Shown here piece after piece: positions 24,001-26,502 of a stretch of DNA of 41,037 bases. Position numbers: made by a program. The stretch covers positions 1-41,037 of IMG/VR virus record IMGVR_UViG_2684623059_000003. One strand, written 5' to 3'. How positions within the stretch are numbered: the first letter of the stretch is position 1; the number at the start of each line of letters is the position of its first letter. This stretch comes from a virus (Duplodnaviria; Heunggongvirae; Uroviricota; Caudoviricetes).

Positions 24001-26502
24001 CTCTGATGCGCAACCGACGACGACCAGCGGCAATATCATCACGCAGAGCATCATTTTCAGCTTTCGCATCAGCTAATTCCTTTGAATATTTTGCATCGAG
24101 TGCAGCAACGTCACGCTGGCGCACCTGCATATCAGTAATGATCGCCTCTGCCAGTTTCAGCTCTCTGGCATTGTCATCGCGTTGTGTTTTGTAGGTAATG
24201 GCGTTATCGCGGTAATGATCTGTTGCCAGCCACAGAGCACTACAGACCATCAGCAGGACAATAATCACGCCATACAGAATCCGGTTCATTTCACCACCTG
24301 CGTATCTGACCGATGAAATAACCGGAGCCCATAACCACAAACACCAGCCAGATAAGGATGAACTTCCAGGTGGATAATTTTTCAGCCATCACTCGAATCT
24401 CCAGAATCAGTTTGCTAAAATCAAACACGTTTTCTCCTTTAGCTTTCCCATGGGCAGAAAACAAAACCCCGCTTGCTGCCAACAAACGGGGTTTTTGCTT
24501 TTATTCACTTCCTTTTGCCAGTTTGCAGAATATCGTGTTATCCGCTTGTGTGAGCAAACGGCATTTTTCAGCAAAATATTCTGCTTATCTGTCGATCCCC
24601 CAGCACACCAGCGCACTCTCCTGGTCACGACGAATAACCTGACCGTAACAGTTATTTGAACGAATGCGGCAATCACGGCCACCGTCCTTAATCCACCAGC
24701 GAATCGCCTCGCATGCGCCTTTACGATCACCGGCATTCAGCCGCTTATAAAACGTCGACGGGAAACACTTACCGGGGCCAATGTTATAGGGACAAAATGA
24801 CGCAATACCTGCTTTCTGTGGTTCGGTCAGTGGCACTTTAATATTGCGCTCCACCCATGCCAGCGCCTTATCCCGTTCAATGGCATTAACCTGATCGCAT
24901 TTTTCCTTCGTCAGTTTCATGCCAGGAATAACAGGCTTACCATCCACCATTGTGGCACCACGACAGATGGTCCATATGCCAGAACCATCACGGTATGCCG
25001 TTGTGTGGTTACCTTCTTTTTCATCCAGAAACTGGTCAAGTATTTGAGGAGCAGACGCGCCTGCAGCAATCAGCGCCAGAACGGCAGCTGACAGGCCGTA
25101 TTTGATTTTTACGTTCATGGATATTTATCAGGATTTATCGGCTTCAAATCCCCGGATATGTTAAATCTTACCTCACCAGTGATGGGCACTGGCGGGATGA
25201 GGATGTCAATCTGATAAACACAGAGGCGACTATGGATTACACAAATCTACCAAAACAAACTTTTGCTGATTTAATCGCACTCAGGCAAGCAGTCGTAGCT
25301 CTAATCAACTTGTTGCCGGAGAAGGAAAAGGAATTAGTTAAAGCGCTTCTTAACAGAACTGCCGCCGATTTTTCATCATATCCACTGACAGATGACCTTG
25401 CGGACCTTCCTGAATTAATTGCAGCGTCCGCCAATAAGCTTACTGAAGAGATTTACCCTCCTCAAAAATCTTCACAAAATTCCTGCGAGTAACTTCAATG
25501 CAATAATCGTAAAACGCCGCAAACTGCTCATCGCGGCGTTTTTTTTCATCTTCAGAAGGAATCAGCACCGACAATTTTTTATTCAGATCAGCGACGCTGC
25601 CCTCCAGTTTTTCAATGGGCGATTCAATATCATCTTTTTCTGACCGCAATGCCGTCGGTGGCGTCTTCAGAGAACCAGTAATTCTTCCCGGTAGCTTTCC
25701 TTTGTAGGTTATCCACACATTCTGCGCCTCTAAAATTATGGGGCGCTTTTCCGGCGACAGCTCATCCCCTTCACATAACCCGGCAGCAACATCCAGGAAG
25801 ACCTGTCTGATGCTCCTTCTGGCTGCTGCCTCATAAAACTCCAGCGCGGCACCTTCAACACGGTCCAGCGAGATGTCCAGGTCAAAAATTTCACCGTCAA
25901 AGCGTTTTTTGTCCCGTAACGCTAAAGTTACCGTAACTTTATTCTCAAAATTGCGGATCCCTTTCACAATCAGTTCATAGTTTTGAGTCATTGAATTACT
26001 CTCCCCGCGCAGCCTTACGCTTGTCTTCTCTGATTTTGAAGTACAGATTTGTCAGATAAGTCAGGAAGCCCAGAACCAGACTCCCCAGCACACCAATCGC
26101 AGCCCACTGTGACGGACTGACCTGATCAAGCCACTGTAAAAACCAGTAGCCAGCACTGCCTGCGGAGGTGCCGTAGGCAATGCCCGTTGAAATTTTGTCC
26201 ATGGATTTCATAGCCTCACCTCCGCAAATAACGGATGGCGTAGTTTTACACTGAGAGATGAAAGGGATTTGAAAAGAAAAGCCCGCAAAAGCGGGCGAAA
26301 CGGTATCTACAGTAAGGAAAGCACTCTATCCAACAAACCACCCACAGTTAATCGGAATAAAAGCAGAGTGCTTATGAATGATCGCCTGCCCGAAGATTGG
26401 TATTTCTGCACAGCAATTTTGCAAAAAAGACGCTCATTCATAACCCAAACGTCTTTCAGTCACTCCGGGCTTTCCCATCATCGCAGACTGAAAGACTCTA
26501 AC

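What the first reader, a model, noticed from the sequence alone, without database searches (positions are those of the whole stretch)
25119..25991. Cargo inserted inside the lysis cassette: DUF1327-like gene and a plus-strand acidic ORF
Between the pinholin and the SAR endolysin sits a 183-aa DUF1327-like gene, followed by a 320-bp gap containing a plus-strand 86-aa ORF (25232-25492; Shine-Dalgarno GAGG; acidic, Leu-rich) convergent with the late genes. This holin-endolysin gap is a known moron hot spot, and its contents could be superinfection-exclusion or host-interaction factors.
Basis: partly seen in the sequence, partly recalled or inferred. Interest (0 to 1): 0.5.

Follow-up and report, generated by a model that had tools for sequence, protein, structure and literature searches.

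The report
Antisense small gene inside prophage lysis cassette
Between the holin and endolysin genes of this E. coli lambdoid prophage sit a common late gene of the YdfR/DUF1327 family, lengthened by a helical tail, and a small self-contained gene on the opposite strand that encodes a conserved acidic protein of unknown function; the layout resembles a classic phage "moron" and is interesting but not extraordinary.

Summary
The minus (late) strand reads, in transcription order: S21-type holin (25996-26211), a 183-aa DUF1327 protein (25440-25991), a 321-nt gap, and a lysozyme with the N-terminus of a SAR endolysin (24585-25118). An 86-aa acidic ORF, here called B (25232-25492), lies on the plus strand.

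B is a real gene family. It has three lineages at 38-55% identity in E. coli/Shigella and Salmonella lambdoid prophages. Length, Shine-Dalgarno site and start are conserved, and dN/dS is about 0.3-0.5.

The conserved unit is about 430 nt: an upstream block with promoter-like hexamers, the ORF, and a hairpin about 20 nt after the stop. In this window the hairpin is followed by T8, making an intrinsic terminator. The unit has lower GC (41%) than its flanks. It is absent from otherwise near-identical phages and occurs in at least three late-region contexts, so it looks like a moron.

The 183-aa protein is a chimera. Residues 1-112 are YdfR/DUF1327, present in about 80% of complete E. coli genomes; the K-12 homologue is reported to bind RNase E. 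A roughly 70-aa helical module follows, and it also exists as a free-standing 67-aa gene.

B is predicted to be a three-helix bundle. It has no informative homologue, so its function is unknown. There is no evidence for superinfection exclusion.

The parts
25996..26211 (-). Class II holin of the phage 21 S type. Context only: the upstream late gene.
   Evidence: Pfam Phage_holin_2_1, E = 1.4e-35. The ORF is listed.
25656..25991 (-). DUF1327/YdfR domain, residues 1-112 of the 183-aa late protein.
   Evidence: Pfam PF07041, 141.2 bits. Residues 1-74 are 81% identical to K-12 YdfR. The DNA matches the short YdfR of phage 611R1 over the DUF1327 part and diverges near window 25670; the proteins agree through 'LKTPP'.
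25440..25655 (-). C-terminal module 'A' (residues 113-183 plus the stop codon), fused to DUF1327. Predicted as two long helices.
   Evidence: The same sequence exists as a free-standing 67-aa gene (P0029), lying between the holin and B. It matches phrog_36381 and phrog_15975. An in-frame 84-nt insertion in PhiR5_1 keeps the frame open. Helices 123-143 and 147-182 come from a low-confidence AF2 model.
25232..25492 (+). Gene B: an 86-aa acidic protein predicted to be a three-helix bundle, convergent with the late genes.
   Evidence: phrog_2572, 86/86, E = 4e-53. PGAP annotates the equivalent ORF in related E. coli genomes as 'hypothetical protein' (WP_001306174.1; WP_001557934.1). Homologues are. 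dN/dS is. AF2 gives pLDDT 71 with helices 8-25, 30-48 and 56-74.
25440..25492 (.). The 53-nt stretch that codes on both strands: the last 17 codons of B and the last 17 codons plus stop of the 183-aa gene.
   Evidence: Coordinates. The same convergent overlap, 53 or 59 nt, is present in all three lineages.
25117..25162 (+). Conserved block upstream of B. ATGGATATTTATCAGGATTTATCGG is invariant or nearly so. It contains promoter-like hexamers TTTATC (25134-25139) and TATGTT (25157-25162), 17 nt apart. On the other strand the same block is the region just upstream of the endolysin start codon.
   Evidence: Alignment of the three lineages. The spacer varies in sequence but is always 17 nt. The TAT..T element is missing in phage 611R1, which lacks B. 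The consensus scan did not report this site, because it matches only 7 of 12 positions.
25222..25226 (+). Shine-Dalgarno site AGAGG, 5 nt before the ATG of B.
   Evidence: Sequence. The equivalent AAGGA is kept in the other two lineages.
25511..25546 (+). Hairpin (10-bp stem, 25511-25520 with 25533-25542) running into a T8 tract. It lies 19 nt after the stop codon of B, inside the coding sequence of the 183-aa gene, and is an intrinsic terminator for B. It also folds on the minus strand.
   Evidence: Folding energy is -14.6 kcal/mol on the plus strand (z = -2.9) and -19.4 on the minus strand. The hairpin is present in all three lineages, with 8 pairs always formed and one G-C to A-U compensatory change.
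24585..25118 (-). Lysozyme with a SAR-type N-terminus. Context only: the downstream late gene.
   Evidence: Pfam Phage_lysozyme, E = 5.5e-25.

Best explanation
**Two different things share this interval.**

(1) The 183-aa gene is a Q-dependent late gene. Its first 112 residues are the YdfR/DUF1327 domain, which is a routine occupant of the holin-endolysin gap. By homology to K-12 YdfR it is probably a cytoplasmic protein that binds RNase E and RNA. Recombination has fused it to a roughly 70-aa two-helix module, 'A', which elsewhere is a separate small late gene.

(2) The 86-aa ORF, B, is the coding part of a compact transcription unit of about 430 nt that points against the late operon. The unit has:
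- a conserved upstream block with a weak sigma-70-like promoter;
- a Shine-Dalgarno site;
- the ORF;
- an intrinsic terminator placed inside the 3' coding region of the late gene.

This is the anatomy of a moron.

**Proposed mechanism.**
- Host RNA polymerase transcribes B without Q, for example in the lysogen.
- The product is a soluble, acidic three-helix protein that acts by binding another protein.
- After induction, Q-modified polymerase reads through the hairpin and across the unit. This should shut B off by transcriptional interference and produce an RNA complementary to B mRNA.

**Shown versus inferred.**
- Shown: gene structure, conservation, mobility of the unit, and the hairpin.
- Inferred: promoter activity, timing of expression, and the mode of action of the protein. 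Its target is unknown.
For: **B is a real coding gene.**
- It has three lineages at 38-55% identity and 86-93 aa.
- B's frame is the only one open over its full length in every lineage.
- dN/dS is 0.51 within lineages; between lineages pN is 0.25-0.33 against pS 0.60-0.67.
- The Shine-Dalgarno site is conserved.

**The unit is self-contained and mobile.**
- The upstream block, with a constant 17-nt spacer between TTTATC and TAT(G/T)(T/G)T, is kept in every context.
- The hairpin after the stop is kept in all lineages; in the window it is followed by T8.
- GC is 41-43% in the unit against 50-53% in the flanks.
- The unit is absent from phage 611R1 and from K-12 Qin, whose flanks are homologous.
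- It is present in 294 of 5426 complete E. coli genomes.
- It occurs in three contexts:
  - between holin and endolysin in E. coli;
  - between spanin and small terminase in Salmonella Gifsy-like prophages;
  - in a different late-region neighbourhood in L016.
- Phage L106 has a holin and endolysin nearly identical to the window's, but carries the divergent G3 version of the unit.

**Only the end of the late-strand ORF travels with B.** Homology of that ORF across lineages is limited to its last 35 aa or so, which is the part inside B's unit.

**Chimera and YdfR.**
- The free-standing 67-aa A gene is seen.
- The DUF1327 part is 81% identical to the K-12 YdfR region that was reported to bind the RNase E N-terminal domain and to pull down RNA (PMC13232886, read).
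Against: - **Weak promoter match.**
  - The proposed promoter matches only 7 of 12 consensus positions, and the scan did not report it.
  - The most conserved part of the block is also the region just upstream of the endolysin start codon, and it is present in phages without B. It may be conserved for that reason.
- **Terminator tail.** The U-tract after the hairpin is good only in the E. coli lineage.
- **Hairpin covariation.**
  - Support is weak: one compensatory pair, and 81 of 500 shuffles reach the observed score.
  - The stem also encodes conserved residues (RR and AA) of the late protein.
- **Moderate purifying selection.** About 12% of the sampled copies carry a lost start, a nonsense codon, a lost stop or an IS insertion.
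- **No expression data.** No transcript or protein evidence was found.
- **No functional clue for B**.
Confidence: 0.55

Rival explanations
1. A and B form a functional two-gene cassette, and the convergent overlap is the point of the design. On this reading the 3' ends of the two mRNAs pair. Expression of the lysogen-side gene B and of the late gene A (with the downstream endolysin) would then be mutually exclusive, or processed by RNase III or RNase E. Alternatively, the two helical proteins bind each other as a regulator and its antagonist that tune lysis.
For: - B is never found without a late-strand ORF that ends 53-59 nt inside it, in any of the three lineages or contexts.
- A full small A gene accompanies B both in E. 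coli (67 aa, directly after the holin) and in Salmonella (73 aa, start codon abutting the stop codon of the spanin gene).
- The hairpin folds on both strands.
- In the window, A is fused to a domain whose K-12 homologue binds RNase E.
Against: - Co-occurrence is partly forced, because the two ORFs share DNA.
- Outside the shared part, the A proteins of the three lineages are not detectably related.
- The overlap is not more conserved than the rest of B. Between the window and PhiR5_1 there are 3 changes in 53 nt against 11 in 208 nt (my reading).
- Neither protein resembles a known toxin, antitoxin or lysis regulator.
- Copies with a dead B but an open A frame exist.
Confidence: 0.2
2. B is not a working gene. 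It would be a decaying or never-translated ORF carried along in a variable spacer, and what is conserved is the late-strand sequence or RNA.
For: - Distribution is narrow: 18 protein clusters among 5.8 billion with a single-sequence query, nearly all from E. coli, and only one hit among the GTDB species representatives.
- The antisense frame that shares wobble positions with B gives a similar dN/dS (0.54 against 0.51).
- Start loss, nonsense, stop loss and an IS insertion occur in some copies.
- PGAP and other annotators give no function.
Against: - The antisense frame contains 2-3 stop codons in every lineage, and its ORF differs in length between lineages (59-115 aa). B's frame is open from a conserved start to a conserved end.
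- Protein similarity is retained at nucleotide divergence where pS is about 0.6.
- The Shine-Dalgarno site is conserved at the correct spacing.
- The model is an amphipathic three-helix fold with pLDDT 71 from only 8 sequences.
- In Salmonella and in L016 the unit is not followed by an endolysin start codon, so it cannot be merely an endolysin leader.
Confidence: 0.12
3. B is a superinfection-exclusion or anti-defence factor. For example, it could be a small acidic inhibitor protein such as an anti-restriction or anti-CRISPR protein.
For: - B is small, acidic and helical.
- It is encoded by a prophage and oriented as if it were expressed independently of the late operon.
- The only PDB sequence matches are to AcrIIC4-type proteins of similar size.
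Against: - The AcrIIC4 match is not significant (E = 0.6).
- There is no PADLOC hit for the window protein.
- There is no structural match.
- B has no membrane or export signal of the kind many exclusion proteins carry.
- A net charge of -5.5 is far from that of known DNA mimics (my own knowledge).
Confidence: 0.08

Closest known systems
Phage lambda bor, and morons as defined for HK97/HK022 by Juhala, Hendrix and colleagues (from my own knowledge)
   Same: - It is a small gene in or next to the lysis cassette, pointing against the late operon.
- It has its own ribosome-binding site, a promoter-like element and a terminator.
- Its base composition differs from the flanks.
- It is present in some phages and absent from close relatives.
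- In the Salmonella lineage the unit sits after the spanin genes and before the terminase, where bor sits in lambda.
   Different: - It has no sequence or fold similarity to bor.
- B is a soluble acidic helical protein, not a lipoprotein.
- Its 3' end and terminator lie inside the coding sequence of a late gene.
- Expression from the prophage has not been shown.
YdfR of the E. coli K-12 Qin prophage (DUF1327, PF07041)
   Same: - Residues 1-74 are 81% identical.
- It holds the same position between the essQ-type holin and the rrrQ-type lysozyme.
- The conserved part contains the region reported to bind the RNase E N-terminal domain (PMC13232886).
   Different: - The window protein is 183 aa, not 103.
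- After residue 112 it carries an unrelated two-helix module.
- K-12 ydfR overlaps the rrrQ start directly, with no gap and no plus-strand gene.
phrog_2572 and RefSeq WP_001306174.1 'hypothetical protein'
   Same: B is a full-length member of phrog_2572. PGAP annotates the equivalent ORF in related E. coli genomes under this and a sibling accession.
   Different: These entries carry no function, no note of the overlap, and no link to the divergent Salmonella and G3 lineages found here.
Type I toxin-antitoxin loci with convergent, 3'-overlapping transcripts in prophages, such as txpA/RatA and bsrG/SR4 of Bacillus subtilis (from my own knowledge)
   Same: Two convergent transcription units in a prophage have 3' ends that overlap by tens of nucleotides, around a hairpin that folds on both strands.
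   Different: - Both partners encode hydrophilic proteins.
- Neither is a short hydrophobic toxin peptide.
- No non-coding antitoxin RNA is evident.
- Rfam finds nothing in the region.

Membership tests
DUF1327 / YdfR family (PF07041) | Match to the Pfam model above the gathering score | tested here: met
   141.2 bits against a cut-off of 25, residues 1-112.
DUF1327 / YdfR family (PF07041) | Late-strand position directly after a class II holin and before the lysozyme | tested here: met
   The gene starts 4 nt after the holin stop. K-12 Qin and many phages have the same order.
DUF1327 / YdfR family (PF07041) | Single-domain protein of about 100-116 aa | tested here: not met
   The protein is 183 aa. 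Residues 113-183 are a separate module that also exists as a 67-aa gene. PGAP marks such genes as 'missing C-terminus'.
DUF1327 / YdfR family (PF07041) | Binding to the RNase E catalytic domain and to RNA, as reported for K-12 YdfR | not testable with these tools
   Only sequence identity to the binding region (81% over residues 1-74) could be shown.
Moron (autonomous insert in a phage late region) | Present in some genomes and absent at the same site in close relatives | tested here: met
   The unit is absent from 611R1 and K-12 Qin, which have homologous flanks. It is present in 294 of 5426 E. coli genomes.
Moron (autonomous insert in a phage late region) | Own promoter | tested here: inconclusive
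   TTTATC-17 nt-TATGTT is conserved in position in three lineages. It matches only 7 of 12 consensus positions and the scan did not report it.
Moron (autonomous insert in a phage late region) | Own factor-independent terminator | tested here: met
   A 10-bp stem followed by T8 lies 19 nt after the stop, at -14.6 kcal/mol and z = -2.9. The other lineages keep the hairpin but have poorer U-tracts.
Moron (autonomous insert in a phage late region) | Base composition different from the flanks | tested here: met
   GC is 0.41-0.43 over 25100-25600 and 0.50-0.53 in the endolysin and DUF1327 parts.
Moron (autonomous insert in a phage late region) | Transcribed from the repressed prophage | not testable with these tools
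   No expression data were found in the literature searches.
Type I toxin-antitoxin with 3'-overlapping transcripts | Short hydrophobic toxin peptide and a non-coding antisense RNA | tested here: not met
   Both ORFs are hydrophilic (GRAVY -0.20 and -0.75), and B's frame shows purifying selection. There is no Rfam match.
Known anti-phage defence or superinfection-exclusion proteins | Homology to a described defence protein, or a membrane or export signal | tested here: not met
   There is no PADLOC hit for either window protein and no hydrophobic segment in B. This does not exclude an undescribed system.
Lysis accessory proteins (antiholin, releasin, spanin) | Transmembrane domain or lipobox, or homology to such proteins | tested here: not met
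   PHROG matches for both proteins are all 'unknown function', and the sequences show neither a transmembrane segment nor a lipobox. In Salmonella the unit accompanies an unrelated holin and endolysin set.

The most novel reading that the evidence does not exclude
The conserved convergent overlap could be a switch. B mRNA and the late holin-YdfR-endolysin mRNA are complementary over the whole B unit and share a hairpin that folds on both strands. Prophage-state expression of B could then set a threshold or a delay on endolysin expression through duplex formation and RNase III/RNase E processing. The RNase E-binding DUF1327 domain fused to the A module would take part in that processing. This would be an antisense timing device built into a lysis cassette.
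Probability: 0.1. Interest if true: 0.65.

Novelty: new member of a known kind. Interest (0 to 1): 0.36.

Why it matters
- **A candidate prophage-expressed gene.** If B is expressed from the prophage, about 5% of sequenced E. coli strains carry an uncharacterised small cytoplasmic protein placed inside the lysis cassette. These include E. coli B laboratory strains and many pathogenic lineages. The protein could affect host physiology, lysis control or phage-phage interactions.
- **An annotation problem.** The locus holds a gene pair that codes on both strands over 53 nt. Annotation pipelines mishandle it: PGAP calls the intact 183-aa gene a truncated pseudogene.
- **A route to YdfR function.** YdfR/DUF1327 is very common, and its only functional lead is a 2026 report of RNase E binding. 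This locus offers natural fusions and variants for testing that lead.
- **Limits.** None of this overturns current views. The anatomy fits the established moron concept.

Tried and rejected
**Searches that gave nothing.**
- Rfam at a permissive threshold over 23500-27500 found only the two tRNAs and chance matches.
- PADLOC and NCBIfam gave no hit for either window protein.
- Pfam hits for B (GCIP_C, DUF1823) fall below the cut-offs. The 'DUF1823' label in the PhiR phage records therefore looks unsupported.
- PDB sequence searches gave nothing significant. I rejected the AcrIIC4-type matches at E = 0.6 as chance.
- Foldseek of the B model against PDB and BFVD gave no match better than E = 0.8.
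- The afdb50 library was not available.

**Structure prediction.**
- The AF2 model of the 183-aa protein was unusable (pLDDT 38, shallow alignment), so I ran no fold search on it.

**Literature.** Searches for the RefSeq accession or PHROG number, for morons between holin and endolysin, and for the PhiR phages found nothing relevant.

**Wider sequence scans.**
- The GTDB representative scan found only one locus, in E. coli.
- The metagenome scan found no fourth lineage.

**Ideas considered and dropped.**
- I looked by eye for LexA, Fur, IHF, CpxR or PhoP-type sites in the conserved upstream block. None fits its consensus well enough to claim.
- An invariant ATG at 25117 opens a 15-codon upstream ORF in two lineages. 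It has no Shine-Dalgarno site, and its stop is not kept in the third lineage. I did not adopt it.
- The minus-strand ORF opposite B (25237-25434, 65 aa) was considered as the true gene. I rejected it because its ends and length are not conserved and its frame contains stop codons in every lineage.
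Full report
**What is in the sequence**

The window is part of an E. coli lambdoid prophage whose late genes run on the minus strand. The 873-nt interval matches E. coli chromosomes at up to 99% identity.

In the direction of late transcription, the lysis cassette reads as follows:
- a class II holin of the phage 21 S type (25996-26211);
- a 183-aa ORF (25440-25991);
- a 321-nt stretch with no late-strand gene (25119-25439);
- a lysozyme with a SAR-type N-terminus (24585-25118);
- Rz (23825-24340) with Rz1 embedded in it (23887-24069).

Residues 1-112 of the 183-aa protein match DUF1327 at 141 bits.

On the plus strand lies an 86-aa ORF, 25232-25492, which I call B.
- AGAGG sits 5 nt before its ATG.
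- The protein has pI 4.57, net charge -5.5 and 16% leucine.

One point was missed: B is not confined to the gap. Its last 53 nt overlap the last 17 codons and the stop of the 183-aa gene on the other strand.

**Is B a gene?**

Length alone is weak evidence. An ORF of 86 codons or more appears in 3.4% of dinucleotide shuffles of the region. Conservation is what decides the question.

- *Databases.* B matches phrog_2572 from end to end. PGAP annotates the equivalent ORF in related E. coli genomes as a hypothetical protein.
- *Close relatives.* A word-indexed search of 5.8 billion proteins found only 18 clusters, almost all from E. coli at 84% identity or more.
- *Distant relatives.* An exhaustive HMMER search and a profile search found homologues of 89-93 aa at 38-55% identity.
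- *Three lineages.* The family falls into three groups:
  - the E. coli type found in the window;
  - a Salmonella type with a GTG start;
  - a third type, G3, in E. coli-like phages.
- *Reading frame.* B's frame is the only one of six that is open over the full length in every lineage.
- *Selection.*
  - dN/dS is 0.51 summed over within-lineage pairs.
  - Between lineages pN is 0.25-0.33 and pS is 0.60-0.67.
  - The antisense frame that shares wobble positions gives a similar within-lineage ratio (0.54), as expected. It contains 2-3 stop codons in every lineage, and its ORF differs in length between lineages.
- *Indels and ribosome-binding site.* Length variants among related protein clusters are all in frame. 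The Shine-Dalgarno site is kept as AGAGG or AAGGA.
- *Structure.* AlphaFold2 with only eight sequences predicts three helices (8-25, 30-48, 56-74) at mean pLDDT 71, with a disordered tail.

I conclude that B encodes a protein under moderate purifying selection. The selection is not absolute. Among 109 sampled loci:
- seven share a lost start codon;
- one has a nonsense codon;
- four share a 2-nt insertion that removes the stop;
- one copy is cut by an IS3 element.

**The conserved unit**

Aligning the three lineages shows what travels together.

*Upstream of B.* About 115 nt are shared in every context.
- The block begins with ATG(G/T)ATATTTATCAGGnTTTATC, which is invariant or nearly so.
- The block contains TTTATC and TAT(G/T)(T/G)T. 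They are separated by a spacer that varies in sequence but is always 17 nt.
- This is the pattern expected of a -35/-10 pair. It matches only 7 of 12 consensus positions, however, and the scanning tool did not report it.
- On the other strand, the invariant part is also the region just before the endolysin start codon, and it is present in a phage without B. Its conservation therefore has a second possible cause.
- The TAT..T element is specific to units that carry B.

*Downstream of B.* A hairpin lies 19-26 nt after the stop codon in all lineages.
- The sequence is AACGCCGC...GCGGCGTT in the E. coli and Salmonella types and AACGCCACC...GGTGGCGTT in G3.
- Eight pairs are always formed, and one G-C pair is changed to A-U.
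- Covariation support is weak: 81 of 500 shuffles reach the observed score.
- In the window the 10-bp stem runs into eight T residues (25511-25546). It folds at -14.6 kcal/mol, z = -2.9. That is a normal intrinsic terminator.
- It also folds on the minus strand, at -19.4 kcal/mol.

*Composition.* The unit has 41-43% GC, against 50-53% in the endolysin and DUF1327 parts.

**Mobility of the unit**

- Phage vB_EcoS-611R1 and K-12 Qin have the same holin-YdfR-lysozyme order but neither B nor the gap. In K-12, ydfR overlaps the rrrQ start.
- The unit is present in 294 of 5426 complete E. coli genomes. These include E. coli B strain ATCC 11303, where it lies in the Qin prophage.
- It is also in the sequenced phages PhiR63_1, 2H10, PhiR5_1 and the PhiR12 series.
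- Locus L106 has a holin and endolysin almost identical to the window's but carries the G3 version of the unit, so the module has been swapped.
- In Salmonella Gifsy-like prophages the unit sits after the spanin gene (DUF2514) and before the small terminase gene (DUF1441). There it accompanies an unrelated holin and endolysin set.
- In L016 it lies in yet another late-region neighbourhood and is followed, on the late strand, by a separate terminator.
- The holin-endolysin gap is variable in general. Other E. coli prophages carry a 297-aa YdfR variant, or other plus-strand ORFs of 99 and 233 aa in the same slot.

**The 183-aa protein is a chimera**

- The DNA matches the short YdfR of 611R1 over the DUF1327 part and diverges near window 25670. 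The proteins agree through residue 112 and then differ.
- Residues 113-183 are predicted as two long helices, though only from a low-confidence model.
- These residues are nearly identical to a free-standing 67-aa gene, P0029, listed in 401 blocks of the assembly collection. In those prophages the order is holin, 67-aa gene, B convergent with the same 53-nt overlap, then lysozyme. There is no DUF1327 at all.
- PhiR5_1 has an in-frame 84-nt insertion in this module, which keeps the frame open.
- In every lineage a late-strand ORF ends 53 or 59 nt inside B. The ORFs differ widely: 67, 73, 144, 183, 211 and 243 aa, with or without DUF1327.
- Their similarity across lineages is limited to about the last 35 residues: E = 7e-6 between the E. 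coli and Salmonella types, and not significant for G3. That is exactly the part lying inside B's unit (overlap plus hairpin).
- PGAP labels the intact 183-aa gene as a YdfR pseudogene 'missing C-terminus'. I regard this as an annotation artefact, because the protein matches phrog_2091 over 183 of 183 positions.

**What is known about DUF1327**

- The DUF1327 part of the interval matches in 4328 of 5426 complete E. coli genomes. It is a routine resident of this cassette, not an occasional insert.
- It starts 4 nt after the holin stop on the late strand, so it should be expressed with the late operon.
- A 2026 paper (PMC13232886, read) gives the only functional lead.
  - K-12 YdfR was recovered in two-hybrid screens.
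  - It co-purifies with the N-terminal catalytic half of RNase E.
  - The interaction surface lies within residues 1-72.
  - Strep-tagged YdfR pulls down RNA.
  - The gene is almost silent under standard growth.
- The window protein is 81% identical to K-12 YdfR over residues 1-74.
- By homology, then, the N-terminal domain is probably a cytoplasmic RNase E- and RNA-binding module made late in infection. I could not test this.

**Most likely mechanism**

I rate the following reading at about 0.55.
- B is a moron: a self-contained unit transcribed by host polymerase independently of Q.
- It resembles lambda bor in position and orientation (my own knowledge).
- Its product is a soluble acidic three-helix protein that acts by binding a partner.
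- After induction, Q-modified polymerase should ignore the hairpin, read across the unit and silence B. It would also produce RNA complementary to B mRNA.

Gene structure, conservation, mobility and the hairpin are shown. Promoter activity, timing and mode of action are inferred. The target is unknown.
- There is no Pfam, NCBIfam or PADLOC hit.
- There is no PDB sequence match.
- There is no structural match in PDB or BFVD.

**Rivals**

- *A and B are a functional pair coupled by their overlap (about 0.2).*
  - For: they always co-occur, and a whole small A gene accompanies B in two contexts.
  - Against: the co-occurrence is partly forced by shared DNA. The A proteins are unrelated outside the shared part. 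The overlap is no more conserved than the rest of B.
- *B is a non-functional ORF (about 0.12).*
  - For: narrow distribution and some defective copies.
  - Against: the conserved frame, start and Shine-Dalgarno site.

**Verdict**

B is a good moron candidate, but DUF1327 is not cargo, and no function can be assigned.

The elements are already in public databases as hypothetical proteins. What this analysis adds:
- the link between three divergent lineages;
- the definition of the roughly 430-nt unit;
- the conserved convergent overlap;
- the chimeric nature of the 183-aa protein.

This is a new member of a known kind, and its interest is moderate.

Noticed in passing
window 24291-24389 (-), and the hairpin near 24462-24495: Between the endolysin stop and Rz there is a 32-aa hydrophobic ORF (MAEKLSTWKFILIWLVFVVMGSGYFIGQIRRW). 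GGAG lies upstream, and the stop abuts the probable Rz ATG. It matches phrog_6632, of unknown function. Just upstream on the late strand is a G+C-rich hairpin flanked by A and T runs (AAAACCCCG...CGGGGTTTTT), which looks like a bidirectional terminator between the endolysin and Rz (my reading).
   Followed up: partly
window 26503-26656 (-) and 26281-26296 (-): tRNA-Gly(TCC) and tRNA-Thr(TGT) genes lie between the Q antiterminator gene (26951-27772) and the holin. A terminator-like hairpin (GCCCGCTTTTGCGGGC followed by T-rich sequence) follows them, just before the holin.
   Followed up: partly
L006 1562-2263 (+), E. coli strain 2014C-4135: In the same holin-endolysin slot, another prophage has a plus-strand ORF of up to 233 aa, convergent with and overlapping a 263-aa DUF1327 variant. 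PGAP annotates nothing there, and the ORF has no Pfam or PHROG match.
   Followed up: partly
L007 716-1015 (+) and 1017-1688 (-), E. coli strain JNE141411: A third arrangement occupies the same slot. A plus-strand 99-aa ORF (phrog_1853) ends within two bases of the stop of a 223-aa late protein. That protein begins with the A-type helical module and lacks DUF1327.
   Followed up: partly
L001 3538-3873 and L113 6538-6873 (RefSeq E. coli genomes): PGAP annotates the DUF1327-A fusion gene as a pseudogene ('incomplete; missing C-terminus'). In L001 the sequence aligns to the window's intact 183-aa ORF without indels. This looks like a systematic annotation artefact affecting hundreds of genomes.
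   Followed up: partly
L002 about 2470-2555 (phage PhiR5_1): An in-frame 84-nt insertion lies in the helical module of the DUF1327 fusion protein (211 aa instead of 183), immediately after the shared hairpin.
   Followed up: no
window 25177-25193 (+): A perfect 6-bp hairpin, CCAGTG-ATGGG-CACTGG, lies in the presumed 5' untranslated region of B. It is kept in PhiR5_1 and partly recognisable in the Salmonella lineage (GTGGTGGGACACTG), but not in G3.
   Followed up: partly
window 25117-25164 (+): The invariant ATG at the left edge of the conserved block opens a 15-codon ORF: MDIYQDLSASNPRIC in the window and MYIYQALSALKLWLL in Salmonella. The stop falls at the same place in two lineages but is read through in G3. 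There is no Shine-Dalgarno site, so it is probably fortuitous.
   Followed up: partly
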